From an uncultured Planctomycetia bacterium (GTDB lineage: Bacteria > Omnitrophota > Gorgyraeia > Duberdicusellales > 4484-171): a stretch of 46,608 bases of DNA. Position 1 is the stretch's first letter. Each line of letters starts with the position of its first letter. The stretch is from positions 29,179 to 75,786 of the forward strand of contig CAZGLF010000001.1 in the NCBI GenBank assembly GCA_964526615.1. The letters are read 5' to 3'. The translations under genes were made by a program, and so were the position numbers. The notes beneath the pieces were generated by a model, which searched no databases, had not been told where the DNA came from, and saw nothing but the letters and a program-made list of their open reading frames with translations. Positions 1 to 26,961 of this stretch are shown in pieces.

Positions 1-136
1 CAGAAGTTGTATCTAATATCCGCCGCAGGCGGATCGCCTAAGGCCTAACATTTCTTGGCAAAGGCTAATTGGATCCAACGTTTGTATAGACAATACAATA
101 AAGTTAAGTTAGCAAAATAAGTTTTGAAGTAAGAAT

Positions 137-934
137 ATGCCTGAGTTACCAGAAGTTGAGACAATCAAGCGGGAATTGAGTAAAAAAATCATCGGTGTTA
201 AGATAACCGATATTACAATCAACCATAATAAAGTTGTTAAAGAGCCTTCACAAGACCTATTTAAAAAGCAAATCCAAAATTCTTCAATAGAAGATATCAT
301 AAGAAGAGGCAAGCTTTTGATTTTCGTTTTAGATAAAAAGTTTCTTATAGTTCATTTAAGAATTTCCGGCTGGCTTTTATATGGAGAAAAAGACCCCAAA
401 GCCAGAGCTGTTTTTGGGCTTTCCAACGGTAAGTTTCTAAATTATATGGATCAAAGAGTTTTGGGAGAATTGCGGCTTCGCTCGAGCTTTGAGGATTTAA
501 GTTTTCTTCAAAGGCTAGGGCCTGAGCCTTTTGAATTAACCGATAAAGAATTCAGCGAGATTTTAAAGAACAAAAAAACAAAAATTAAAGTATTGTTGCT
601 TGATCAAAACCGGATAGCCGGAATTGGCAATATCTATGCCCAGGAGGCTTTATTTCTAGCAGGAATTGACCCCCGGCGTCAGGCTTTAAGTTTGACTGAA
701 AAAGAAGCCAAGCTGCTTTTAAAAAAAATAAAAGATGTTTTAACCGAGGCAATAAAATATCATGGTTCTTCAGTAGATGCCTACCGTGATACCGAAGGTA
801 AAAAAGGCGGTATGGAAAATCGATTAAAAGTTTATGGACGTAAAGGCGAGCCTTGCTATAAGTGCGGCAGACCGATTGAAAAAATGAGTTTAGGCAGCAG
901 AGGAACTTGTTTTTGCAAAAAGTGCCAGAGATGA
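137..934 (+). CDS. mutM: Formamidopyrimidine-DNA glycosylase (Fpg/MutM)
   Basis: Starts MPELPEVE (catalytic N-terminal Pro/Glu motif). Fpg length. C-terminal zinc finger CYKCGRPIEK...CFCKKCQ. Confidence 0.9.
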   Translation: MPELPEVETIKRELSKKIIGVKITDITINHNKVVKEPSQDLFKKQIQNSSIEDIIRRGKLLIFVLDKKFLIVHLRISGWLLYGEKDPKARAVFGLSNGKFLNYMDQRVLGELRLRSSFEDLSFLQRLGPEPFELTDKEFSEILKNKKTKIKVLLLDQNRIAGIGNIYAQEALFLAGIDPRRQALSLTEKEAKLLLKKIKDVLTEAIKYHGSSVDAYRDTEGKKGGMENRLKVYGRKGEPCYKCGRPIEKMSLGSRGTCFCKKCQR

Positions 935-6964: not shown

Positions 6965-7573
6965 ATGGATGCAAAGTTAGAAAATTTAATCGAAAAAATA
7001 AAAAAAGACGGTATCGATGAGGCTCAAAAAAAATCTCAAGAGATAATCAAAAAAGCTAAGGACCAAGCTGCTCAAATAAAAGAAAAAGCTCAAGAAGAAG
7101 CAGAAAATATAGTAAACAACGCAAAACAAGAGGCCGAAAAATTAAAAACCAATAGCCGGGAATCTTTAAAGCAAGCAGCAAGAGACTTAGTGTTAAGCTT
7201 AAAAGAAAAAATAGTCCAAGAATTCGATAAGGCTTTAAAGAGAAAAATTCAAGGAGAGCTAAAACCAGATTTTTTAAAAGAATTAATTACAAAAATAATT
7301 CAAGAATGGGGGAAAAATCAAAGGGCAGATGTCGAGGTATTTCTAAACAAGGCGGATAAGGAAAAGTTAGAAAAAGAAATATTAAACGAGTTAAAAAATT
7401 CAGCCAAAGACGGCATCGAAATTAAAACCTCTAATATTATAGATAAAGGTTTTCGTATTGGATTAAAGGGCCAAGACCTTCAATATGATTTCACCGACGA
7501 AGGTATTACTGAATCCCTAAAGCAGTTTTTAAACCCGACAATAAGTAAAATTTTAGAAGAAGGTAATGGATAA
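6965..7573 (+). CDS. ntpE: V-type ATPase subunit E
   Basis: Coiled-coil Lys/Glu/Ala-rich N-terminal half followed by a globular C-terminal part. First gene of the V-ATPase operon. SD AAGGAGG lies upstream. Confidence 0.75.
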   Translation: MDAKLENLIEKIKKDGIDEAQKKSQEIIKKAKDQAAQIKEKAQEEAENIVNNAKQEAEKLKTNSRESLKQAARDLVLSLKEKIVQEFDKALKRKIQGELKPDFLKELITKIIQEWGKNQRADVEVFLNKADKEKLEKEILNELKNSAKDGIEIKTSNIIDKGFRIGLKGQDLQYDFTDEGITESLKQFLNPTISKILEEGNG

Positions 7574-8063
7574 GTACTATTATTTGGTTTCGGAATTGCC
7601 TTCTTTAAGTTTTGATCAAGAGCCGCCTCTTAGCCGGGAGGATTTTTTAGAGGAGTGTAGGAAGTGGCTTAGCTCCGGTGACTTCAAGGTTCTCACAAAG
7701 GCTATCATTGAAGTCAAAGCCAAGGAGAATACCGCCGTAGGTGTTTTAAACCAACATAGAAAATTTTATAATGCTCTTAAAAATCAAATAAAGCAGTACC
7801 GCCAAGCAAAAAAAGAGGGTAAGGATTATAAGATATCTTATCCGTTTAATTCCTCGCTTTTAGAGGGCGATCCTTTAGAAGTTGAGAAAAAGTTACTTAA
7901 GATCCAATGGGATTTGCTTGAAGACTCTCAAAAAGAGCATTATTTTGATTTATCTTATCTGGTTTTGTACTATTTAAAGTTACAATTACAAGAGGCCCTT
8001 TTTACTTTTGATAAAGAGAAAGGATTAGCAATGTTTGATGAGTTTTCCGAGGTAAAATTATGA
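7566..8063 (+). CDS. DUF2764-like protein of bacterial V-ATPase operons (possible subunit C-like component)
   Basis: Sits between subunits E and A, as in Bacteroidetes/Chlamydia-type operons. The N-terminal YYYLVSELPSL motif matches my recollection of DUF2764. Coupled to both neighbours by overlaps. Confidence 0.5.
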   Translation: MDKYYYLVSELPSLSFDQEPPLSREDFLEECRKWLSSGDFKVLTKAIIEVKAKENTAVGVLNQHRKFYNALKNQIKQYRQAKKEGKDYKISYPFNSSLLEGDPLEVEKKLLKIQWDLLEDSQKEHYFDLSYLVLYYLKLQLQEALFTFDKEKGLAMFDEFSEVKL

Positions 8064-9817
8064 GTAAAAAATTAGGACATATAACATCGATTCAAGGCAA
8101 TATGATAACAGTTGATTTTAAAGATAATATTCTCCAAAATGAAGTCGGCTATGTTATCTCCAAAGAAGAGCGTTTAATGGCAGAAGTTATTAAAATAAGG
8201 GCAAATACTGCCTATATGCAGATTTTTGAAGACACCAGAGGATTAAGTGTCGGCGATAAAATCGAGTTTTCAAGTAACATGCTTTCTGTTTTGCTCGGGC
8301 CGGGGCTTTTAGGCCAGGTTTATGACGGCCTGCAAAACCCCCTTCCTAAGTTAGCCGAGAAATTCGGGTTTTTTCTGCCAAGAGGAACCCAATTAGACGC
8401 TATTGATAAGAACAAAAAATGGGAGTTTAAACCTGAAGTTAAAGAAGGCGCTAAAGTAGAGAAAGGTTCCCCGCTGGGTTTTGTTAAAGAAGGAATATTT
8501 AAGCACTACATTATGGTTCCTTTTGATTTAGAAGGTGAGTATAAAGTCAAGGATATTATAAAAGAAGGAAAATATAAAGTAACCGATACGGTGGCTACTT
8601 TGGCCGATGAAAAAAATCAAGAAGTTAAAGTAAGCATGATCTTTCAGTGGCCGATAAAACTTCCGATAGATGCCTATCGGGATAAATATACTCCTAAAGA
8701 TCCATTGATTACTAAAGTCAGAATAATAGATACTTTTTTTCCGGTTTCAAAAGGAGGCACCTATTGCATTCCCGGGCCGTTTGGCGCCGGAAAGACCGTT
8801 TTGCAGCAGCTTACCAGCCGCTATGCCGAAGTAGATATTGTTATTATTGCAGCTTGTGGAGAAAGGGCCGGTGAGGTAGTTGAGACGATAAGAAAATTTC
8901 CTGAGCTAACCGACCCCAAAACCGGTAAATCATTAATGGAGAGAACAATAATTATCTGTAACACCTCTTCAATGCCGGTTGCCGCCAGAGAAGCCTCGGT
9001 TTATACTGCAGCTACCCTAGGAGAATACTATCGGCAGATGGGGCTGAATGTTTTGCTTTTAGCTGATTCAACTTCCCGTTGGGCTCAGGCAATGCGTGAG
9101 ATTTCAGGACGTTTGGAAGAGATACCGGGTGAAGAAGCTTATCCGGCCTATCTTGAATCCCGGATAGCTGAGTTTTATGAGCGTGCCGGAGTAGTTGAAT
9201 TGAATTTTAAAGAGAAGGGCTCGCTTACTATCGGCGGCACTGTTAGTCCGGCCGGCGGAAATTTTGACGAGCCGGTAACTCAATCTACCTTAAAAGTTGT
9301 GGGAGCATTCCACGGCCTTTCAAGAGACCGGGCTAACGCTAGGCGTTTTCCTTCAATTGACCCCCTTGAAAGTTGGTCAAGGTACGATACTTTTATCGAT
9401 CCTCAATTGGTTAAAAATGCAAAAATAATTCTTACCAAAGGAAATGAAGTCAGCCAGATGATGAAAGTTGTGGGTGAAGAAGGAACCACTCTAGAAGATT
9501 TTATAATTTATCTTAAAGGCGAATTTTTAGATAATGTTTATTTACAACAGGATGGATTTGATAAAGTCGATGCCGTCACCTCTTTAGAGAGGCAAAAACA
9601 TGTTTTCGCAAAGGTTTCAGATGTCTTGTCAATGGATTTTGATTTTGACAGTAAGGATAATGCCAGAAAATATTTTTATGAGCTCAGGCAAGAATTTATA
9701 AACTGGAATTATAAAGAATGGGAAAGCCAAGAGTTTAAAGAGCAAGAAGAAAAAATTAATAATTTTTTAAAGGAACAAAGCCAAAGCAAGGAAGAAAATG
9801 AGAAAAGTTCACAGTAA
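8060..9817 (+). CDS. ntpA: V-type ATPase catalytic subunit A
   Basis: Walker [10 protein letters not shown]-subunit non-homologous insert region. Strong A/V-ATPase A-subunit features throughout. Confidence 0.95.
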
Positions 9818-11195
9818 AATTCTAAGTATTGTTGGTAATGTTATCACGGTTAAAGCTAAAGACGTAGCTTATGAAGAGTTAGCCCGGGTAAAGACTTCAC
9901 GAGGAACTAGCCTGGCACAGGTTATTAAGATTGAAGGTGATATAGTGTCTTTACAGGTTTTTACCGGCAGCCGCGGGATATCGACAGATGATGAAGTAAG
10001 ATTTTTAGGCCATCCGATGAAAGTTTCCTTTTCAGAAAATATGCTAGGAAGGGTTTTTGACGGTAGCGGCAATCCTAGAGATAAAGGGCCATCCTTGGCT
10101 GAATCAACGATTGAGGTTTCCGGGCCCACAGTTAATCCTTCCAAGCGAATTATCCCAAACCGGATGATAAGAACTAATATTCCGATGATTGATGTTTTTA
10201 ATTCCTTGGTGGTGTCACAAAAATTACCGATATTTTCCGTTTCCGGTGAACCTTACAATGAACTTTTGGCGCGAATTGCTCTTCAAGCCGAGGTCGATAT
10301 GATTATTTTAGGCGGCATCGGATTAAAGTATGACCAATATATGTATTTTAAAAATACCTTGGAAGAGGGAGGGGCATTAAACCGTTCGATATTTTTTGTT
10401 CACACTGCTTCTGACCCGGTAGTTGAAAGTTTAATGGTTCCGGATTTATGCTTAGCAGTTGCCGAGAAGTTTGCTTTAGGCGGTAAAGATGTTTTAGTCT
10501 TGTTGTCGGATATGACTAATTTTTGTGATGGCTTAAAGGAGATAGCAATTACTATGGAACAAGTTCCTTCCAACCGGGGTTATCCCGGAGACCTATATAG
10601 CCAGCTGGCAAAACGTTACGAGAAGGCAGTTGACTTTGAAGGAGCAGGCTCAATCACTATACTTTCAGCCACCACCATGCCGGGAGATGATGTTACCCAC
10701 CCGGTGCCCGATAATACCGGTTACATAACCGAGGGCCAATTTTATTTACGAGAAGGACGAATTGAGCCCTTTGGTTCTCTAAGCCGTTTAAAACAGCAAG
10801 TTAATGATAAAGCCCGAAAAGACCACCGGGCGATAATGGATGGAATGATCCAGCTTTACGCTCAATACCGGGAGACCGAAGAAAAGCGTTCAATGGGTTT
10901 TAGGATGAGCGGCTGGGATAAGCAGCTTTTAAAATATGGAAGCCTTTTTGAATCAGAGATGATGGATTTAGGAGTTAAGGTCTCTTTGGAAGAAGCCTTA
11001 GATAAAGGATGGCAGATTTTGGCAGAGTGTTTTAGCCCCAAAGAAACTAGTTTCAGAAGTGATTTAATAGAAGAATTCTGGCCTAAAGATAAGAAGAAAA
11101 AAACGCCTGAATCCGAGCAAAAAGAAGCACCGGAGGAAAAAGAGCAAGAGGAGCCAGGCCAAACTGATCAAGGCAATCAAGACAAGGAGACCTAA
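9798..11195 (+). CDS. ntpB: V-type ATPase subunit B (with an acidic/Lys-rich C-terminal tail)
   Basis: B-subunit features without a canonical P-loop. The last ~40 aa are low complexity ([23 protein letters not shown]...). Confidence 0.9.
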
Positions 11196-11213
11196 TCCAG
11201 CCTCCAAATACTT

Positions 11214-11825
11214 ATGGCTAAATTAAGACTGACCAAAAACGAATTAAAAAAACAAAAAGAAGCCTTAAAGCGATTTGACCGGTACCTACCGATGCTTTCG
11301 CTTAAGAAGAAGCAACTGCGTTTAGAAATAACTAAGATACAGCACCGGATAAAAGAGGTTACTGATAATATCGAGAATTTAAGAAACGATGTTGTTAACT
11401 GGGTTGATGTTTTTGCCCAAGAACTTGATTTGACTGATTTTTTGGAAATAGGAGAGGTTAAAGTCAAGCAGGGAAATGTAGCCGGTATAGATTTGCCGAT
11501 TTTTTCCAAAGTTGAATTTAAAGAGAAAGAATATGATCTGCTCAAAACACCTCTTTGGATAGATAAAGGGGTAGAAGCCCTTAAGGAGATAGTTAATTTA
11601 AAAGCCGAACTCGAAGTTTACCATAGGCAGGTAGCAGTATTAAAAGAAGAGTTAAGGACAACTACCCAGAGAATAAATTTATTTGAAAAAGTAAAAATAC
11701 CCGAGGCTAAAGAAAGCATAAGAATTATTCAAATATCTTTAGGCGAACTTCAAACAGCTGAAGTTATTAGAGGTAAAATAGCAAAGTCAAAAATCGAAAA
11801 GAGAAAAACCGAATTCGCGCAATGA
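11214..11825 (+). CDS. ntpD: V-type ATPase subunit D
   Basis: Starts LRLTKNELKKQKEALKRF, as subunit D proteins typically do. About 200 aa, coiled coil, expected operon position. Confidence 0.85.
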   Translation: MAKLRLTKNELKKQKEALKRFDRYLPMLSLKKKQLRLEITKIQHRIKEVTDNIENLRNDVVNWVDVFAQELDLTDFLEIGEVKVKQGNVAGIDLPIFSKVEFKEKEYDLLKTPLWIDKGVEALKEIVNLKAELEVYHRQVAVLKEELRTTTQRINLFEKVKIPEAKESIRIIQISLGELQTAEVIRGKIAKSKIEKRKTEFAQ

Positions 11826-13591
11826 TAGTAAAGATGGATAAAATAACTTTGTTGGTTTCTGAGAAACACATAAGCGATGCCCTTTGGAATTTACGAAGGT
11901 TAGGGGTTGTGCACGTTGAGCCGCTTCAGCAACCAAGTGCTCATTATATCGATTACCTCAACCATAGAATCGAGAGTGTGGAAGCAGTAGCAAAAATTTT
12001 AAGCGACATCAAAAAACAGAAAGCAATTGCCAAGCCAGACATTGCCGATTTTTTAAAAGAAGTAATAGCTTTAAATGATGAAAAAGAGCAGTTAAGTTTA
12101 CAATTGGACCAATTAAATAAAAAAAGCAGTTGGTATGACCAGTGGGGTGATGTTTCAGAACATGGTTTTGCTCCTCTTGAGAGAGCAGGTATTTTCCTAA
12201 AGCTTTATGCTATAAGTAAAAAAGAATATAAAAAAATAAAAGAAAAAGAAGAGATCCATCTTGTTAAAGAAAGCGGCCCCACAGCTTATATTGCCTATAT
12301 TACCGGAAACAAAGAAGATAGATTAGATTTTGTTCAAATAAGCCCGCCCCATGAAGATTTACAAACTTTAAAGAAAAAAATATATGAGCGTCAGAAGAAA
12401 ATCAAAGAAATCGATACCCGCCTCAAAGAAGCGTCGATTTATAAGAAATCACTGATTGAGTATAAAAAAGAGCTTTTCAAGGGGCTAGAGTTTTGCCGGG
12501 TGAAATTCGGAGTTATTTCAAAGGAAGGAATAAATTGCCTTAAGGGGTTTTGCCCAAGGCACTCAACAAAAAAAGTTTCGGCAATGGCCAAAAAACAAGG
12601 CTGGGGGATAGTTGTCCAAAAACCGGATAAACCGCAAGAGGTCCCTACGTTAATCAAAAATCCTAAATGGGTAAGGATGATAAGGCCGGTATTTAATTTT
12701 ATGGGCACCCTTCCCGGCTATAAGGAGTATGATGTAAGCCTTTGGTTTTTAATTTTCTTTAGTTTATTTTTTGCCATGTTGATCGGTGACGCCGGTTACG
12801 GTTTAATATTTTTAGGAGCAAGTTTTTTTGCCCAGAAAAAGATCAAAAAAGCACCTAAAGAACCTTTCTTTTTGATGTATACCTTAAGTGTTGCAACTGT
12901 TATTTGGGGAGCGATAACCGGAACTTGGTTTGGTTACGAGAGGATTGCTCAACTACCGTTTTTAAATTTTTTAGTCATAAACCGCATCGATAGCTTTGCC
13001 CAGGAAAATCAATCATTTATGATATATCTTTGTTTTTTGATTGGAGCAATCCATTTAAGTATAGCTCATTTGATAAAATTTTTCCGTTATATAAATTCTT
13101 TGGTTTCTTTGGCCCAAATTGGCTGGGTTTTTATAATTTGGTTTGTTTTTTATTTTGCCGGGGGATTAGTTTTGTCGAGGCCGATACCAAATTTTGCTTC
13201 TTTTCTCGGTATCGTGGGTGCGGCTTTAGTGATATTGTTTTCTAATCCTCAGAAAAATATCTTAAAAGGTATGCTTTTATCGATAAGCGACTTACCGCTG
13301 AATGTGATAAGTTCTTTTTCTGACGTAGTTTCTTACTTGAGGTTATTTGCTGTCGGCTATTCAACTGTAGCAATAGCCAGCACATTTAACAATATGGCTT
13401 TGGCTACCGGAATGAATACTTTAATGACTTCATTTTTGGCAGCCTGTATTTTAGTTTTGGGACACGCTTTAAATATTCTTTTAGGGATAATGTCGGTCAT
13501 CGTACATGGCATAAGGCTTAATATGCTTGAATTTTCAGGCCACCTAGATATGCAATGGTCCGGCAAAGAGTATCGGCCTTTTAAAGAGTGA
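11822..13591 (+). CDS. ntpI: V-type ATPase subunit I (stator/a-subunit)
   Basis: Soluble N-terminal half plus a multi-TM C-terminal half containing the conserved SYLRL motif. Expected operon position. Confidence 0.9.
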   Translation: MIVKMDKITLLVSEKHISDALWNLRRLGVVHVEPLQQPSAHYIDYLNHRIESVEAVAKILSDIKKQKAIAKPDIADFLKEVIALNDEKEQLSLQLDQLNKKSSWYDQWGDVSEHGFAPLERAGIFLKLYAISKKEYKKIKEKEEIHLVKESGPTAYIAYITGNKEDRLDFVQISPPHEDLQTLKKKIYERQKKIKEIDTRLKEASIYKKSLIEYKKELFKGLEFCRVKFGVISKEGINCLKGFCPRHSTKKVSAMAKKQGWGIVVQKPDKPQEVPTLIKNPKWVRMIRPVFNFMGTLPGYKEYDVSLWFLIFFSLFFAMLIGDAGYGLIFLGASFFAQKKIKKAPKEPFFLMYTLSVATVIWGAITGTWFGYERIAQLPFLNFLVINRIDSFAQENQSFMIYLCFLIGAIHLSIAHLIKFFRYINSLVSLAQIGWVFIIWFVFYFAGGLVLSRPIPNFASFLGIVGAALVILFSNPQKNILKGMLLSISDLPLNVISSFSDVVSYLRLFAVGYSTVAIASTFNNMALATGMNTLMTSFLAACILVLGHALNILLGIMSVIVHGIRLNMLEFSGHLDMQWSGKEYRPFKE

Positions 13592-13624
13592 TTTGATTTT
13601 AGTTTTATTTTAAGGAGGTGTAAT

Positions 13625-14071
13625 ATGATTCAAGGTTTTGGTGACATGAACTTTTCTTTGGCTTTTGCCGCCGTGGGTTCTGCTTTAGGTACTGGAGTAG
13701 CCGGCATGGCTGCTGTTGGTGCTTGGAAGAGAGCTTTTGCTCAGAATAAAACAGCACCATTTACTCTAGTTGCTTTTGTCGGAGCACCTTTAACCCAGAC
13801 AATTTACGGGATGATATTAAGAGACCAGATTATCGGTGCAAAATTGCCGGCAGATCCAAAAGTTTATGGTTATTTAATGATTATCGGTGCTATCGCCGGT
13901 ATTGCTATGGGAGCCTCAGCTTATATGCAGGGGAAAACCGCGGCCCGAGCCTGTGATGCTTTAGCCGAAACCGGTAAAGGATTTGGCCAATATATTATGG
14001 TTTTAGGGATAATCGAAACAGTTGCTCTTTTTGTAATGGCATTTTGCATGATGGCAATTCCTAAGGTATAA
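13625..14071 (+). CDS. ntpK: V-type ATPase proteolipid subunit K (4-TM, 148 aa)
   Basis: Gly/Ala-rich double-hairpin proteolipid. PLTQTIYG, MQGK and IETVALF match the Na+-ligand positions of Enterococcus hirae NtpK as I recall them. Confidence 0.9.
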   Translation: MIQGFGDMNFSLAFAAVGSALGTGVAGMAAVGAWKRAFAQNKTAPFTLVAFVGAPLTQTIYGMILRDQIIGAKLPADPKVYGYLMIIGAIAGIAMGASAYMQGKTAARACDALAETGKGFGQYIMVLGIIETVALFVMAFCMMAIPKV

Positions 14072-14207
14072 TACTTTGGAAAATAGCAAAAAAAGTGAGA
14101 TTTAAGCTAAATTCTTGGTGCTTTGGCTAAACTCAGCAGCAATCCTGAGAGAAATCGAAGGGTTGATTTTTCTTAGAATTTTGGTATTATTGAGCGATAT
14201 AATCGAT

Positions 14208-14279
14208 GGGCGGTTGGCGCAGCGGAAGCGCATCTGACTTACATTCAGAGGGTCACAGGTTCAAATCCTGTACCGCCCA
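14208..14279 (+). tRNA. tRNA-Val (anticodon TAC); CCA not encoded
   Basis: Manual cloverleaf: acceptor GGGCGGT/ACCGCCC; D arm GCGC-AGCGGAA-GCGC; anticodon arm TCTGA-CTTACAT-TCAGA; T arm ACAGG-TTCAAAT-CCTGT; discriminator A. Confidence 0.9.
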
Positions 14280-14327
14280 TGGTTTTATTTTGTTATTTTT
14301 TAAGGTAATATATTATTATAAACAGGT

Positions 14328-14406
14328 GGTGTTTAGAAGGGTTTAATGGATGCAATAGTTGCGGTTGAAGATTCTCTTCAACCGGCTCGCTTCGCGAGAT
14401 TGCATA
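14328..14406 (+). other. 79-nt structured insert (three-way junction) between an ACAGGT hexamer and the tRNA-Val 3'-end copy
   Basis: Closing helix TGCAAT (14351..14356) / ATTGCA (14399..14404). It encloses hairpin GGTTGAAG-ATTCT-CTTCAACC (14363..14383) and hairpin CTCGC-TTC-GCGAG (14386..14398). Confidence 0.6.
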
Positions 14407-14427
14407 CAAATCCTGTACCGCCCACCA
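14407..14427 (+). repeat. Sense copy of the last 18 nt of tRNA-Val (CAAATCCTGTACCGCCCA) followed by CCA
   Basis: 18/18 identity to 14262..14279. Unlike the gene itself, the copy is followed by CCA. Confidence 0.85.
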
Positions 14428-14466
14428 TTATTAAAAGTAATTTTATGGGTAAAGCAAAAATTAGAT

Positions 14467-16170
14467 ATGAATTTAGATAAATTAAGGCATTCGTGTTCTC
14501 ATATTTTAGCCAGCGCTGTTAAAAAACTTTATCCCGATGCTAAACTTGGTATTGGACCGGCAATTGAAAGTGGTTTTTATTATGATTTCGATATCCCCCA
14601 AGGTGTGAAGGAAGAAGATTTAGAAAAAATCGAAGGCCTGATGCAGCAGGAGATCGAGCAAAATTTACCATTTGAAAATCAAGAGTGGAGCTCAGAGGAA
14701 GCCATTGATTTTTTTAAAAAAAGAGGAGAACGCTATAAGGTAGAATTAATAAAAGAATTGGGCAGTGATAAAGTTTCAATTTATAAACATAACGATTTTA
14801 TCGACTTATGTAGGGGCCCGCATTTGGAATCAACAAAAGAAGCAAGGTATTTTAAGCTTTTATCTACATCTGGCGCTTATTGGAGAGGCTCGGAAGAAAA
14901 CCAACAATTAGTAAGGATTTACGGTACAGTTTTTCCGACAAAAAAAGAATTAAAAAAACATTTAAATAATTTAGAAGAAGCAAAAAAAAGAGATCATAGG
15001 AAATTAGGTAAGGAATTAGAACTCTTTGACATTTATCATAGTCAGGCTGGAGCCGGCTTGGTGTTTTATCTGCCTAAAGGAGCCCTTTTGCGAAGGATAA
15101 TCGAGGACTGGGAGATTAAAGAACATCTAAGAAGAGGATACCAGATGGTGGGAACCCCTCATATAATGGATAGTAGTCTTTGGCAAAAAAGCGGCCACCT
15201 CAATTATTACCAAGAATATATGTATTTGGCCCAGAAAGAGAATCAGGATTTTGTCTTGAAACCGATGAATTGCCCGGGTCATATCCTAATTTATAAGTCT
15301 AAACTTCATAGTTGGCGCGATTTGCCTTTAAGAATGTTTGAGCTGGGAACAGTGTACCGTTATGAAAAAAGCGGGGTTCTACATGGCCTTTTGAGAGTAA
15401 GAGGGTTTACTCAAGACGATGCCCATATTTTTTGTAAAAACGAAGACCTTGATTCTGAAATCGAAGGAGTCCTGGATTTCGTTAAAGCAGCGATGGATAA
15501 GTTTGGTTTTTCTGATTATACCGCTGAATTAAGTACCCGGCCTAAAGAATTTATCGGGGAAAGCGAGGATTGGGATAGAAGCGAGAAGATATTAGAAGAG
15601 GTGTTAAAGAAAAAGAAATTTAATTATCGCGTCAACGAGGGTGACGGGGCATTTTATGGGCCCAAGATAGATATAAAATTAACCGATGCCTTAGGCAGGC
15701 AGTGGCAATGTGCAACAGTTCAACTAGATTACAATATTCCAAAGAGGTTTGATTTAACTTATCGTTCTTCAAATGGGAAAAATGAAAGGGTTGTGATGGT
15801 CCACCGGGTAATTTTGGGGAGCTTGGAGAGATTTTTTGCTACCTTGATTGAGCATTATGCCGGAAAGTTTCCTTTATGGCTTGCTCCGGTTCAGGTAAGT
15901 GTGTTAAGTATAACCGATGAAGTAAAAGAATATGCTGCTCAAATAAAGGAAGAATTAGAAGAGGCCGGATTTAGGGCAGAGGCTGATTTAAGAGATGAGA
16001 CCTTGCAGAAAAAAATAAGAGAAAAGGAATTATATAAGATACCTTATATGGTTATAGTAGGGAAAAAAGAACAACAGGAAAATAAAATTTCTCTGCGGCA
16101 AAGAGGGATGAAGAATTTAGGAGTGAAAGCGAGAAAAGAATTATTAGAACTTTTAAAAAAGGAGGCATAA
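14467..16170 (+). CDS. thrS: Threonine--tRNA ligase lacking the N-terminal TGS domain
   Basis: Begins just before the editing-domain HSCSHIL motif (E. coli RHSCAHLL). Class II motifs present (FRVRGFTQDDAHIF, GAFYGPKID), followed by the anticodon-binding domain. I prefer the ATG at 14467. The ORF-track TTG at 14359 would read through the tRNA-fragment region. Confidence 0.9.
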   Translation: MNLDKLRHSCSHILASAVKKLYPDAKLGIGPAIESGFYYDFDIPQGVKEEDLEKIEGLMQQEIEQNLPFENQEWSSEEAIDFFKKRGERYKVELIKELGSDKVSIYKHNDFIDLCRGPHLESTKEARYFKLLSTSGAYWRGSEENQQLVRIYGTVFPTKKELKKHLNNLEEAKKRDHRKLGKELELFDIYHSQAGAGLVFYLPKGALLRRIIEDWEIKEHLRRGYQMVGTPHIMDSSLWQKSGHLNYYQEYMYLAQKENQDFVLKPMNCPGHILIYKSKLHSWRDLPLRMFELGTVYRYEKSGVLHGLLRVRGFTQDDAHIFCKNEDLDSEIEGVLDFVKAAMDKFGFSDYTAELSTRPKEFIGESEDWDRSEKILEEVLKKKKFNYRVNEGDGAFYGPKIDIKLTDALGRQWQCATVQLDYNIPKRFDLTYRSSNGKNERVVMVHRVILGSLERFFATLIEHYAGKFPLWLAPVQVSVLSITDEVKEYAAQIKEELEEAGFRAEADLRDETLQKKIREKELYKIPYMVIVGKKEQQENKISLRQRGMKNLGVKARKELLELLKKEA

Positions 16171-26746: not shown

Positions 26747-26961
26747 GTAAACGTCTATTTAAATTGTCAAGCATGTTGTTTTGACCAAAGTTCTATTTAT
26801 TCTGTTTGCCGGTGCGGGAATAACTATATCAGTTTAAAGCCGTGTGTCTTGCTTCGCAAAAGTTATTACCGCCACCCTCGCGTAAACGTCTATTTAATTT
26901 GTCAGGCTTGTTGCCTTAAGCAAAGTTTGTCTTATTCTGTTTGCCGGTGCGGGAATAACTA
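26734..26961. repeat. Diverged direct duplication (two 93-nt copies, 26734..26826 and 26869..26961) of tRNA-Leu nt 1-13 plus ~80 nt of its upstream region, separated by a 42-nt hairpin-bearing spacer
   Basis: Manual alignment gives about 11 mismatches in 93 positions. The spacer 26827..26868 contains CTTGC-TTC-GCAA and the helix AATAACT/AGTTATT. Confidence 0.85.

What the first reader, a model, noticed from the sequence alone, without database searches (positions are those of the whole stretch)
14208..14466. CCA-tailed second copy of the tRNA-Val 3' end, preceded by a 79-nt three-way-junction insert, in the thrS leader
The last 18 nt of tRNA-Val (CAAATCCTGTACCGCCCA, 14262..14279) recur in the same orientation 127 nt downstream (14407..14424). 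There they are followed by CCA, which the gene itself does not encode.

A 79-nt segment lies immediately 5' of the copy. It folds as helix TGCAAT/ATTGCA enclosing two hairpins. Just before that segment sits ACAGGT (14322..14327), which matches the 5' strand of the tRNA-Val T stem plus the first T-loop base.

Read together, this is ACAGGT-[79 nt]-CAAATCCTGT-ACCGCCCA-CCA. That looks like a T arm split in its loop by an inserted element, with the rest of the tRNA missing. The encoded CCA hints at an RNA-derived (retro) origin or a distinct ancestral gene copy. The structure sits 40 nt upstream of the thrS ATG.
Basis: seen in the sequence. Interest (0 to 1): 0.75.

Follow-up and report, generated by a model that had tools for sequence, protein, structure and literature searches.

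The report
Mobile mini-repeat inserted in tRNA-Val
The extra CCA-tailed tRNA-Val tail is the gene's original 3' end, pushed 145 bases downstream when a small non-coding mobile repeat carrying its own replacement tRNA end landed in the T-loop; the same apparently undescribed repeat family sits at other tRNA genes and at start codons in related Omnitrophota genomes.

Summary
It has an exact 18-nt same-strand repeat (chance expectation 0.01), CCA after the distal copy, and a three-way junction (3WJ) just upstream.

The interpretation needs changing. In all closest relatives (ThrRS 78-80% identical), tRNA-Val encodes CCA and lies 30-37 nt before the thrS ATG, with no insert. The distal CCA copy is therefore the displaced ancestral 3' end, not a retro-copy. 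About 145 bp was inserted at T-loop position 56/57, and it supplies a CCA-less replacement 3' end.

The 3WJ is the conserved end of a dispersed 130-150-bp repeat family, called "E" here. A covariance model finds 10 distinct copies in about 0.7 Mb of Omnitrophota contigs. Of the base-pair cells, 97.5% are paired, and 12 of 18 pairs show compensatory changes.

Copies sit at:
- tRNA-Val (this window and a distant lineage);
- tRNA-Leu (this window, in tandem, and a relative);
- the start of mutM;
- operon start codons, where clean empty and filled sites exist.

Each unit carries a copy of the gene end it displaces.

No recombinase was found, so the mechanism is inferred. The closest known architecture is Neisseria REP2. 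I rate it a new variant of a known kind, of moderate to high interest.

The parts
14163..14190 (+). Promoter-like site of tRNA-Val (TTGATT-16-TATTAT with TG). It is conserved upstream of tRNA-Val in relatives and marks the ancestral 5' side of the gene.
   Evidence: conserved 'tttttcttaa.attttggtattatt' in L001, L053 and L057.
14208..14279 (+). Functional tRNA-Val(UAC) gene. Positions 1-55/56 are the ancestral gene. The last 17-18 nt (14262-14279) are the replacement 3' end brought in or duplicated with the insertion. No CCA is encoded.
   Evidence: comparison with relatives.
14280..14347 (+). 68-nt arm of the inserted unit. It starts T-rich and contains a promoter-like site at 14290-14319. 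It is not similar to the thrS leader. ACAGGT at 14322-14327 lies in this arm and is probably a chance match.
   Evidence: 38% in-register identity, not significant.
14348..14407 (+). Three-way-junction end of repeat family E: GGA-TGCAAT-[10-bp hairpin]-[5-bp hairpin]-ATTGCA-TAC.
   Evidence: Covariance-model hit of 23.3 bits, E = 0.001; folds; alignment.
14407..14427 (+). Displaced ancestral 3' end of tRNA-Val (positions 56-73) with its gene-encoded CCA.
   Evidence: relatives have tRNA-Val-CCA 30-37 nt before the thrS ATG; here CCA lies 39 nt before the ATG.
14467..16170 (+). thrS (ThrRS, 567 aa, no N-terminal TGS domain). It is the downstream neighbour and was formerly directly behind tRNA-Val.
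26365..26680 (-). Two identical tandem E units downstream of tRNA-Leu(GAG): period 134, 2.4 copies, 100% identity. Each unit is the tRNA-Leu 3' end from C56, plus 68 nt, plus a three-way junction (26594-26546 and 26460-26412).
   Evidence: (33.7 bits each).
26663..26746 (-). Functional tRNA-Leu(GAG) gene, flanked by E units on both sides.
26747..26881 (-). Older, partly decayed E-type unit on the 5' side of tRNA-Leu. It has a distal copy of tRNA positions 1-13 (26881-26869), then the three-way-junction remnant TA-ATAAC...GTTATT-CCC, then an arm with a promoter region. The period is 135 nt. The same unit occurs in L148 and L149, with an intact junction in L149.
9..157 (+). E unit in front of and inside the start of mutM (ORF 137-934). 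The three-way junction is at 9-76 and the arm at 77-136. The unit then carries ATGCCTGAGTTACCAGAAGTT. The 8 nt left of the unit (1-8, CAGAAGTT) repeat ORF positions 150-157.
   Evidence: (41.8 bits, E = 6e-9).

Best explanation
**Shown.**
- The tRNA-Val/thrS spacer of this Omnitrophota genome carries one copy of a small non-coding, dispersed repeat, called E here, with a unit of about 130-150 bp.
- One end of E is a conserved three-way junction: GTAT(A/G/C)CAAT, two hairpins, ATTG..A-TCC. Read on the tRNA strand this is GGA...TAC.
- The other end of E is a copy of whatever gene end the insertion displaced.
- Here E sits in the T-loop of tRNA-Val between positions 56 and 57, antisense to the tRNA. 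Its far end supplies a new 3' end (positions 57-73, without CCA), so the gene stays intact.
- The gene's original 3' end, with its encoded CCA, now lies 145 bp downstream just in front of thrS.
- The same architecture is found at tRNA-Leu on the 3' side and, in older copies, the 5' side. It is also found at the first codons of mutM and at start codons inside operons. In the operon copies the unit ends with its own Shine-Dalgarno sequence plus ATG.

**Inferred.**
- E is a non-autonomous mobile element moved in trans.
- Most plausibly it forms a small circular (or single-stranded) intermediate. That intermediate recombines through a short match between the element's homing end and the target.
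- New homing ends would be picked up by aberrant, size-limited excision, analogous to specialised transduction.
- Insertions that restore the gene are the ones that survive.
For: **Ancestral state.**
- Ten loci from the nearest relatives (L001-003, L053-061) all have tRNA-Val with encoded CCA, then 30-37 nt, then the thrS ATG, and no insert.
- In the window the distal copy plus CCA lies 39 nt before the ATG.

**Second independent case.**
- tRNA-Leu in empty L148 ends in CCA.
- In filled L149 the proximal gene lacks CCA. A junction plus a distal copy with 2 mismatches and CCA follows.

**Family.**
- The covariance model R1 finds 10 distinct copies at E <= 0.003 in 7 loci.
- 97.5% of cells are paired, against 80% in shuffles and 34-43% when partners are slid.
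- 12 of 18 pairs carry double (compensatory) changes (alignment).

**Empty and filled sites.**
- rpmI|rplT is empty in L001 and L053 and filled in L060 and L057.
- rplT|trkA is empty in L001 and filled in L053 and L057.
- yjeF|lactB is empty in L001, L053 and L148 and filled in L060.

**Element-borne arm.**
- The arm end GAACTAT(A/T)G(G/T)AG(G/A)TA...ATG is shared by copies in front of rplT, trkA, argG and lactB.

**Restoring copies.**
- The exact restoring copy is 18 nt at window Val, 48 nt at window Leu, 19 nt at L052 and at least 9 nt at mutM (limited by the window edge).
- Unit lengths are 129-149 nt.

**DNA-level logic.**
- The junction end always abuts the displaced fragment.
- As a result, E lies in both orientations relative to transcription.

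**Not an artefact.**
- The L052 module is identical in independent ENA and Logan assemblies.

**Site preference.**
- The repeats cover the T-loop to the 3' end, and the 5' end to the D-arm. These are the same tRNA sublocations that integrases use (10.1101/2020.11.02.365908; PMC9897764).
Against: - No integrase, transposase or reverse transcriptase is encoded in the ORFs scanned by Pfam (25.6-46.3 kb), and the rest of the window is syntenic housekeeping genes. None was found near any copy, so the enzyme and the intermediate are unknown.
- Only about 11 copies from MAG or metagenome contigs were available.
- The window's own genome could not be fetched beyond the window.
- Spread between relatives by plain homologous recombination of a rare indel cannot be excluded for any single locus.
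- In L052 the distal tRNA copy is 18/18 identical although the duplicated flanks are only 76% identical. The duplication also predates the L052/L147 split. That points to selection or gene conversion rather than a neutral relic.
- The near-constant unit length, and the 86/88/86-nt distance from C56 to the junction, are not explained by any tested mechanism.
- The window Val arm shows no detectable origin.
Confidence: 0.7

Rival explanations
1. Classical remnant of a tyrosine-integrase genomic island or prophage. A large element integrated at the T-loop att site of tRNA-Val and was then almost completely deleted, leaving attL, about 127 bp, and attR.
For: Direct repeats of the tRNA 3' part starting in the T-loop are the textbook attL/attR signature. 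The proximal copy restores the gene while the distal copy is the old end. Tandem accretion at tRNA-Leu looks the same.
Against: Deletion would have to leave the same roughly 130-150 bp with the same conserved, covarying three-way junction at five or more independent sites. The same element also sits at start codons and inside mutM, with no tRNA involved. No integrase or island genes flank any copy. At tRNA-Leu and in L052, the DNA between the repeats is itself a copy of the native downstream sequence.
Confidence: 0.08
2. A different transposition chemistry produces the same footprint. One option is a retroelement using target-primed reverse transcription, with a fixed 3' junction and a long variable target duplication. 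The other is a single-strand HUH (IS200/IS605- or IS91-like) miniature element that cuts after NTG.
For: One junction is fixed while the length of duplicated target varies from 5 to about 88 nt. The junction lies next to (A/T)TG|A-type sites. The perfect hairpins fold well as single-stranded DNA on either strand. The tandem head-to-tail copies at tRNA-Leu would fit template switching or rolling-circle copying.
Against: No reverse transcriptase or HUH gene was seen. There is no second subterminal hairpin at the other end, as IS200/IS605 derivatives have. The arms of start-codon copies are element-borne rather than fresh target duplications. Duplication length plus element length is roughly constant, which neither model predicts.
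Confidence: 0.15
3. A functional cis-acting RNA. The junction plus a single-stranded mimic of the tRNA 3' strand would act in the tRNA-Val/thrS transcript, for example in processing, as a CCA- or RNase-binding decoy, or in thrS control.
For: The structure is strongly conserved with covariation. The distal tRNA copy in L052 is kept 18/18 while its flanks diverged to 76%. The location in the thrS leader is shared by two lineages. The whole-spacer folds are more stable than shuffles.
Against: It is absent from all ten nearest-relative loci and half-deleted in L147. The distal copy is decaying in L149. The same element occurs behind tRNA-Leu with no downstream gene. It also occurs upstream of unrelated ORFs, on the opposite strand relative to transcription. 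No Rfam family matches, T-box included.
Confidence: 0.07
4. One reading: a T arm split in its loop by an insert, belonging to a second, otherwise lost tRNA copy of retro (RNA-derived, CCA-bearing) origin.
For: CCA follows the distal copy, and ACAGGT lies 79 nt upstream. Genuine T-loop-interrupted tRNA-Val pseudogenes do exist in other Omnitrophota contigs, L045 and L038.
Against: CCA is gene-encoded in the nearest relatives, at the same distance from thrS. ACAGGT has no counterpart in the sister modules. The upstream promoter and 5' part of the intact gene are orthologous to the relatives' single gene, so there was never a second gene.
Confidence: 0.03
5. A one-off local duplication or an assembly artefact.
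For: The contigs are MAG-derived, and tandem repeats are hard to assemble.
Against: The module has the same architecture at several loci and in several genomes. The L052 module is identical in three independent assemblies. The 18-mer repeat is far beyond chance.
Confidence: 0.02

Closest known systems
Neisseria REP2 repeats and Borrelia IR-A/IR-B (Parkhill 2000; Morelle 2003; reviewed by Delihas 2011, PMC3184786)
   Same: They are 120-154 bp, have no terminal inverted repeats, and carry two internal stem-loops near one end. [quoted passage not shown] They lie immediately upstream of genes, occur in tens of copies, and their way of spreading is unknown. The start-codon copies of E match every one of these points.
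   Different: There is no evidence of sequence relatedness (not compared), and the phylum is different. In E the two stem-loops are closed by a third helix into a three-way junction. REP2 has not been reported inside tRNA genes or with tRNA-derived ends. The copy in this finding has a tRNA 3' end where REP2 has its RBS and ATG.
Integrative elements that target tRNA genes (attL/attR; T-loop and D-loop sublocations; Williams 2002 as cited)
   Same: The element inserts in the T-loop, brings a replacement 3' end, and leaves the old 3' end as a direct repeat at the far side. The 5'-side variant repeats the 5' end through the D-arm. Tandem arrays occur.
   Different: Those elements are kilobases long and encode their integrase. 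E is about 140 bp and non-coding, and it also uses start codons and an ORF interior. The crossover sequence is not flanked by the symmetric stem arms expected of a T-loop core site (GCATA, not CAGGTT, lies left of C56).
MITEs, REP/BIME, and cis-mobilisable elements (CIMEs)
   Same: They are short, structured, non-coding, dispersed, non-autonomous and intergenic, and they can cause rearrangements. An example is the synteny break inside E between L053 and L054.
   Different: E has no terminal inverted repeats and no fixed short target duplication. It has a polarity, with a junction end and a homing end. It carries a functional replacement for the interrupted gene end.
Specialised transduction by aberrant excision (lambda gal/bio), as a working analogy only
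   Same: An integrated element swaps part of itself for adjacent host DNA while its total size stays constrained. This would explain target-derived ends at constant unit length.
   Different: This is purely an inference here. No excision product, packaging limit or enzyme has been observed.

Membership tests
tRNA-targeting integrase island (attL/attR remnant) | Direct repeat of the tRNA 3' part starting in the T-loop, with the proximal copy completing a functional gene | tested here: met
tRNA-targeting integrase island (attL/attR remnant) | Integrase gene (and usually kilobases of cargo) between or next to the repeats | tested here: not met
   Only 127 bp lie between the repeats. No integrase appears in the ORFs scanned by Pfam (25.6-46.3 kb) or in the gene tables of related loci.
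tRNA-targeting integrase island (attL/attR remnant) | Core site with inverted-repeat symmetry (T-stem arms) on both recombinant junctions | tested here: not met
   At the distal junction the sequence left of C56 is ...ATTGCATA, not a T-stem-like arm.
MITE | Terminal inverted repeats | tested here: not met
   The ends are GTATACAATC... and ...GGAGATAAGAGATG (or a tRNA end); no inverted-repeat match.
MITE | Fixed-length short target-site duplication | tested here: not met
   The exact repeat of the left flank varies: 5, 5, 5, 6, at least 9, 18, 19 and 48 nt.
MITE | Under about 400 bp, non-coding, multiple dispersed copies, empty/filled polymorphism | tested here: met
REP2-type repeat (architecture) | 120-154 bp, no TIRs, two internal stem-loops near one end | tested here: met
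   Units are 129-149 bp, with two hairpins inside the junction.
REP2-type repeat (architecture) | RBS plus ATG at the other end, fused to the downstream ORF | tested here: met
   Met for the rplT, trkA, argG, lactB and mutM copies. The tRNA copies, including the one in this finding, carry a tRNA end instead.
REP2-type repeat (architecture) | Internal promoter; sequence homology to Neisseria REP2 | not tested
   Only a consensus promoter-like site was seen in the Val arm. No REP2 sequence was available for comparison.
IS200/IS605-derived miniature element (PATE) | Similar subterminal hairpins at both ends | tested here: not met
   Only one end is structured.
IS200/IS605-derived miniature element (PATE) | Insertion 3' of a fixed tetra- or pentanucleotide without duplication; Y1 transposase present in the genome | tested here: inconclusive
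   Junctions follow (A/T)TG-like sites but the boundaries are ambiguous. The transposase is not testable without the whole genome.
tRNA intron / split or permuted tRNA | The interrupted gene is the functional copy and needs removal of the insert | tested here: not met
   An uninterrupted tRNA-Val (70.7 bits) and tRNA-Leu are present, and the distal piece is only positions 56-73.
Known RNA families (T-box, thrS leader, ribozymes, tmRNA) | Match to an Rfam covariance model | tested here: not met
   No hit at the gathering threshold or at E <= 10 other than the tRNA itself. ARAGORN finds no tmRNA.

The most novel reading that the evidence does not exclude
E represents a class of miniature mobile elements that insert into essential genes without harm: tRNA T-loops and D-arms, start codons of ribosomal-protein operons, and the first codons of mutM. 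Insertion is harmless because each unit carries a swap-in copy of the gene end it displaces. New target specificities would arise by size-limited aberrant excision of a roughly 140-nt circular or single-stranded intermediate. If so, E would also give a mechanism for how REP2-type 'RBS+ATG' repeats spread, which has remained unknown.
Probability: 0.3. Interest if true: 0.8.

Novelty: new variant of a known kind. Interest (0 to 1): 0.6.

Why it matters
- **Annotation.** It resolves an odd-looking "CCA-tailed half tRNA" as the displaced original end of tRNA-Val. This bears on tRNA-fragment calls, on CCA-encoding status, and on start-codon and C-terminal extension errors such as the 127-aa rplT in L057.
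- **A new repeat family.** It exposes an apparently undescribed dispersed repeat in Omnitrophota, a phylum known almost only from metagenomes, at roughly one copy per 10 kb in the loci seen.
- **Unusual property.** The same about 140-bp non-coding unit lands inside essential genes and always restores them, with a tRNA 3' end, a tRNA 5' end plus promoter, or an SD+ATG.
- **Testable link to REP2.** This connects tRNA-targeting integrative elements with REP2-type repeats, whose mode of spread is unknown. The question becomes testable by read-level searches for empty sites and circle junctions, and by phylogenetic profiling for the partner enzyme.
- **Rearrangements.** The copies also appear to act as rearrangement points, as in L053 versus L054.

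Tried and rejected
**Searches that led nowhere**
- Collection scans with the motif GCTTCGCNNGATTGNNTACNNNTCC gave only chance hits with no tRNA nearby: 12 in genome contigs and 4 in viral contigs.
- The viral scan CAATN{20,50}GATTGNNTACAAATCC gave 83 hits, all chance matches in coding sequence.
- The viral scan with the family consensus GTATACAATCTCCGN{20,50}ATTGTATCC gave 0 hits.
- The window's own contig could not be retrieved.
- Rfam at permissive thresholds found nothing.

**Ideas considered and dropped**
- Hammerhead or other ribozyme, integron attC (R'/R'' boxes) and group II intron 3' end: the core motifs are absent by reading the sequence.
- An acceptor/T-arm minihelix (GGUGGU pairing with ACCGCC; ACAGG pairing with CCUGU): it is possible in the Val copy but absent in the Leu and L052 copies.
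- A guide-RNA-like reading (scaffold plus 18-nt 3' guide, as in TnpB/CAST homing): the scaffold is too small, no effector gene is present, and the element lies in both orientations.
- A fixed roughly 86-nt target duplication: it fits Leu (p about 0.002) and L052 (p < 0.001) but not the Val arm (p = 0.16).
- MAFFT alignment of the three modules was unusable. It was replaced by alignment to the covariance model.
Full report
**1. The observation**

tRNA-Val(UAC) occupies 14208-14279 on the + strand (ARAGORN; Rfam tRNA 70.7 bits). Its last 18 nt, CAAATCCTGTACCGCCCA, recur exactly at 14407-14424 on the same strand. Even allowing 3 mismatches the expected number of chance matches is 0.01.

The gene is followed by TGG and the distal copy by CCA. 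The 79 nt before the distal copy fold into helix TGCAAT/ATTGCA enclosing a 10-bp and a 5-bp hairpin. The fold of 14318-14430 is -42.7 kcal/mol with z = -4.5. ACAGGT is at 14322-14327 and the thrS ATG is at 14467. All coordinates in the finding are right. No Rfam family other than tRNA matches the region, even at E <= 10.

**2. The same thing happens at the only other tRNA in the window**

tRNA-Leu(GAG) lies at 26746-26663 on the - strand. It is followed by a perfect tandem repeat (26365-26680, period 134, 2.4 copies, 100% identity). Each unit starts at the same tRNA position (C56). It runs through the tRNA 3' end and 68 nt of flank. It ends in a three-way junction of the same design: GGA-AACAAT-[ATTGC-TTC-GCAAT]-[CCGGC-TTC-GCCGG]-ATTGTT-TAC.

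Upstream of tRNA-Leu, the first 13 nt of the tRNA plus its promoter region are also duplicated with a 135-nt period.

**3. Organism and ancestral state**

ThrRS homologues place the window in Candidatus Omnitrophota. Ten loci from the nearest relatives (ThrRS 78-80% identical: L001-003, L053-061) are syntenic, with the V-type ATPase operon, then tRNA-Val, then thrS-infC-rpmI-rplT. All of them have a single tRNA-Val that encodes CCA and lies 30-37 nt before the thrS ATG, with no insert.

In the window, the tRNA promoter region and 5' part are orthologous to those genes. The distal copy plus CCA lies 39 nt before the ATG. The distal CCA-tailed copy is therefore the original 3' end of the gene. 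About 145 bp has been inserted between T-loop positions 56 and 57, and the insert begins with a replacement 3' end that lacks CCA. This removes the "RNA-derived" argument.

An independent replicate exists at tRNA-Leu. The relative L148 has an empty site with tRNA-Leu-CCA. Its sister L149 has a CCA-less functional gene, 64 nt, a three-way junction, and then a distal copy AAGTCTCCTCCCTTGCA (2 mismatches) followed by CCA.

**4. A second lineage with the Val module**

Contig L052 has ThrRS 72% and PheT 47% identical to the window, so it is more distant than the relatives that lack the insert. It carries the same module between tRNA-Val and thrS: GGATGCAAT-[GTCCTT..AAGGAC]-[CTTCGCT..AGCGAAG]-ATTGCATAC, followed by an 18/18 copy of its own tRNA 3' end.

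- The closing helix is the same as in the window, while the two hairpins are entirely different in sequence yet perfectly paired.
- The module is identical in independent ENA and Logan assemblies (L145, L146), so it is not an assembly artefact.
- In L052 the 70 nt after each tRNA-end copy are duplicates at 76% identity.
- The sister genome L147 has one tRNA end, the flank, and only the first half of the junction.
- The L052 module is therefore old and has been partly deleted in L147. Yet the distal tRNA copy in L052 has stayed identical. The probability of that is about 0.007 if it were decaying like its flanks. It implies gene conversion, ongoing recombination or selection.

**5. The junction is the end of a dispersed repeat family**

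A structural descriptor search and then a covariance model built from two copies were run over about 0.7 Mb of Omnitrophota loci. They found 10 distinct copies at E <= 0.003. Besides the tRNA copies, these are:

- window 9-76;
- L053 12856-12920;
- L057 12500-12550 and 12976-13038;
- L060 12489-12539 and 21191-21250.

In the model-fitted alignment, 97.5% of pair cells are standard pairs, against 80% in shuffles and 34-43% with slid partners. Of the 18 pairs, 12 show changes on both sides. The alignment was fitted to the structure, which favours it. However, the hairpins are perfect in each raw sequence and fold with z from -2.6 to -6.4 as RNA or as DNA of either strand.

**6. What the non-tRNA copies look like**

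Read with the junction as GTAT(A/G/C)CAAT...ATTG..A-TCC, each unit continues with a 65-85-nt arm. It ends in GAACTAT(A/T)G(G/T)AG(G/A)TAAGAG-ATG, which is a Shine-Dalgarno sequence plus a start codon fused to the downstream ORF. That arm end is shared by copies in front of rplT, trkA, argG and a metallo-beta-lactamase-fold gene, so it belongs to the element.

Empty and filled sites are clean.

- At rpmI|rplT, L001 and L053 read TAG-aaaggagatttata-ATG-AAGG.
- L060 reads TAG-aaaggagactgaa-ATG | 131-nt unit ending ...ggaggtaaaaaa-ATG | AAGG.
- The other filled sites are rplT|trkA in L053 and L057 and yjeF|lactB in L060.

The window's own third locus (9-157) sits in the start of mutM. The unit ends with ATGCCTGAGTTACCAGAAGTT. 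The 8 nt left of the unit (window 1-8) repeat ORF positions 150-157. The element therefore landed after codon 7 and carries a copy of the gene's start.

Unit lengths are 129-149 nt. The exact repeat of the left flank at the far end is 5-6 nt at start codons, at least 9 nt at mutM, 18-19 nt at tRNA-Val and 48 nt at tRNA-Leu.

**7. Common logic**

In every copy the junction end abuts the displaced (distal, non-functional) fragment, and the arm abuts the functional gene. Consequently the element is antisense to the tRNA when it is on the tRNA's 3' side. It is sense when upstream of an ORF or on the 5' side of tRNA-Leu.

The 5'-side unit at tRNA-Leu is shared by the window, L148 and L149. It has an intact junction, GGA-ACAGCT-[hp]-[hp]-AGCTGT-TAC, in L149 (z = -4.15) and decayed hairpins elsewhere. 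Its period is 135-140 nt.

An orientation tied to the interrupted gene rather than to transcription argues for a DNA-level element and against a dedicated RNA function. Other points fit a mobile repeat:

- The hairpin CGGTTGA...TCAACCG of the window's Val copy recurs in the L149 Leu copy, showing exchange between tRNA targets.
- L053 and L054 have identical ThrRS but differ in gene order exactly inside an E copy, rplT-E-trkA versus rplT-E-argG.
- Density in the loci seen is roughly one copy per 10 kb.

**8. Mechanism (inferred)**

No integrase, transposase or reverse transcriptase is encoded in the ORFs scanned by Pfam (25.6-46.3 kb), the rest of the window is syntenic housekeeping genes, and none appears near other copies. 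E must therefore be non-autonomous.

The tRNA sublocations involved (T-loop to 3' end with the insertion downstream; 5' end to D-arm with the insertion upstream) are those used by tyrosine integrases. Displaced tRNA fragments are their usual footprint.

The model that best fits all copies is a small circular (or single-stranded) intermediate of about 140 nt: junction, arm, homing end. It would recombine with a target resembling its homing end. SD+ATG ends would be promiscuous among gene starts, and tRNA ends specific for one tRNA.

New homing ends could arise by aberrant excision that trades arm sequence for adjacent host DNA under a size limit. This would explain three things:

- the constant unit length;
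- the 86/88/86-nt distance from C56 to the junction;
- why the arm at tRNA-Leu and in L052 is homologous to the native downstream flank.

Target-primed reverse transcription or an HUH single-strand mechanism cannot be excluded. These steps are inference; none was observed.

**9. Comparison with what is known**

By architecture the closest described repeats are Neisseria REP2 and Borrelia IR-A/B. They are 120-154 bp, lack terminal inverted repeats, and have two stem-loops near one end. They carry an RBS plus ATG at the other end, lie immediately upstream of ORFs, and spread by an unknown route (Delihas 2011, PMC3184786). The start-codon copies of E fit all of these points.

The tRNA copies, including the finding, add the behaviour of tRNA-targeting integrative elements in a unit of about 140 bp. 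E fails the defining tests for:

- MITEs (no TIRs, no fixed target duplication);
- IS200/IS605 miniatures (only one structured end);
- integrase islands (no integrase, no cargo, no symmetric core);
- introns or split tRNAs;
- any Rfam family.

Two literature searches (T-loop/miniature/non-autonomous elements; Omnitrophota plus repeat/MITE terms) found no description of this element.

**10. Verdict**

The CCA tail is the ancestral gene end, not a retro-copy. The ACAGGT match is incidental, and the structure is not a thrS-specific leader.

What is there is one member of a dispersed, structured, gene-end-restoring mini-repeat family. I rate it a new variant of a known kind, with interest 0.6. The main open question is the enzyme and the intermediate.

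Noticed in passing
L045 4152-4419: A complete second tRNA-Val(UAC) copy carries an 88-nt insertion exactly after C56 of the T-loop and has a 1-nt deletion in the acceptor 3' strand. An intact tRNA-Val follows 36 nt later. The insert is not an E junction, so the T-loop 56/57 position seems to be a general hot spot.
   Followed up: partly
L038 1815-1925; L045 about 7996-8024 and 19278-19310: A 5'-truncated tRNA-Val(UAC) (lacking positions 1-14) has a 47-nt T-loop insert, TCCGCC...GGCGGATCCGCCTCTGGCGGA. Near-identical copies of that hairpin element occur at two unrelated places in L045. This is a second small repeat family, and its GGCGGA/TCCGCC stems resemble hairpin P3 of E.
   Followed up: partly
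L040 5496-5700 and 8760-8845: In a more distant relative, a different roughly 100-nt repeat (GGCTTCG(C/T)AGGAATA...CTGCGAAGCTC.ACCGGAGTTTAACGGGGAGAAGAGCGGAGCAGGGCA) occurs twice behind tRNA-Leu(GAG) and once behind tRNA-Arg(ACG).
   Followed up: no
L053 versus L054, about 12920-13002: These two contigs have identical ThrRS but differ in gene order starting inside an E copy: rplT-E-trkA versus rplT-E-argG-argH. This suggests recombination between E copies.
   Followed up: partly
L057 12627-13010 and 12976-13038: rplT is called as 127 aa instead of 114 aa because its reading frame runs into the E copy inserted at its 3' end (...VKDKKGIQSPPKAESV*). rpmI was not called in this locus, where an E copy sits between rpmI and rplT. 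These are annotation artefacts caused by the repeat.
   Followed up: partly
window 14467-16170: ThrRS here and in all relatives is about 567-580 aa and starts in the editing (tRNA_SAD) domain. It lacks the N-terminal TGS domain of canonical bacterial ThrRS.
   Followed up: no
window 6965-14071 and L001 2861-9821: A V/A-type ATPase operon (subunits I, K/c, A, B, D) lies directly upstream of tRNA-Val in this bacterial lineage. tRNA-Val and thrS appear to be co-transcribed in relatives, where only 30-37 nt separate them.
   Followed up: no
window 14208-14279 versus L001, L053, L057: The window's tRNA-Val differs from that of its nearest relatives in the anticodon stem (CTGAC/TTCAG versus CTCGT/ACCGAG) and the T stem. 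It matches the tRNA-Val of the distant, module-bearing L052/L147 lineage in the anticodon stem. The tRNA allele and the module may have travelled together.
   Followed up: partly
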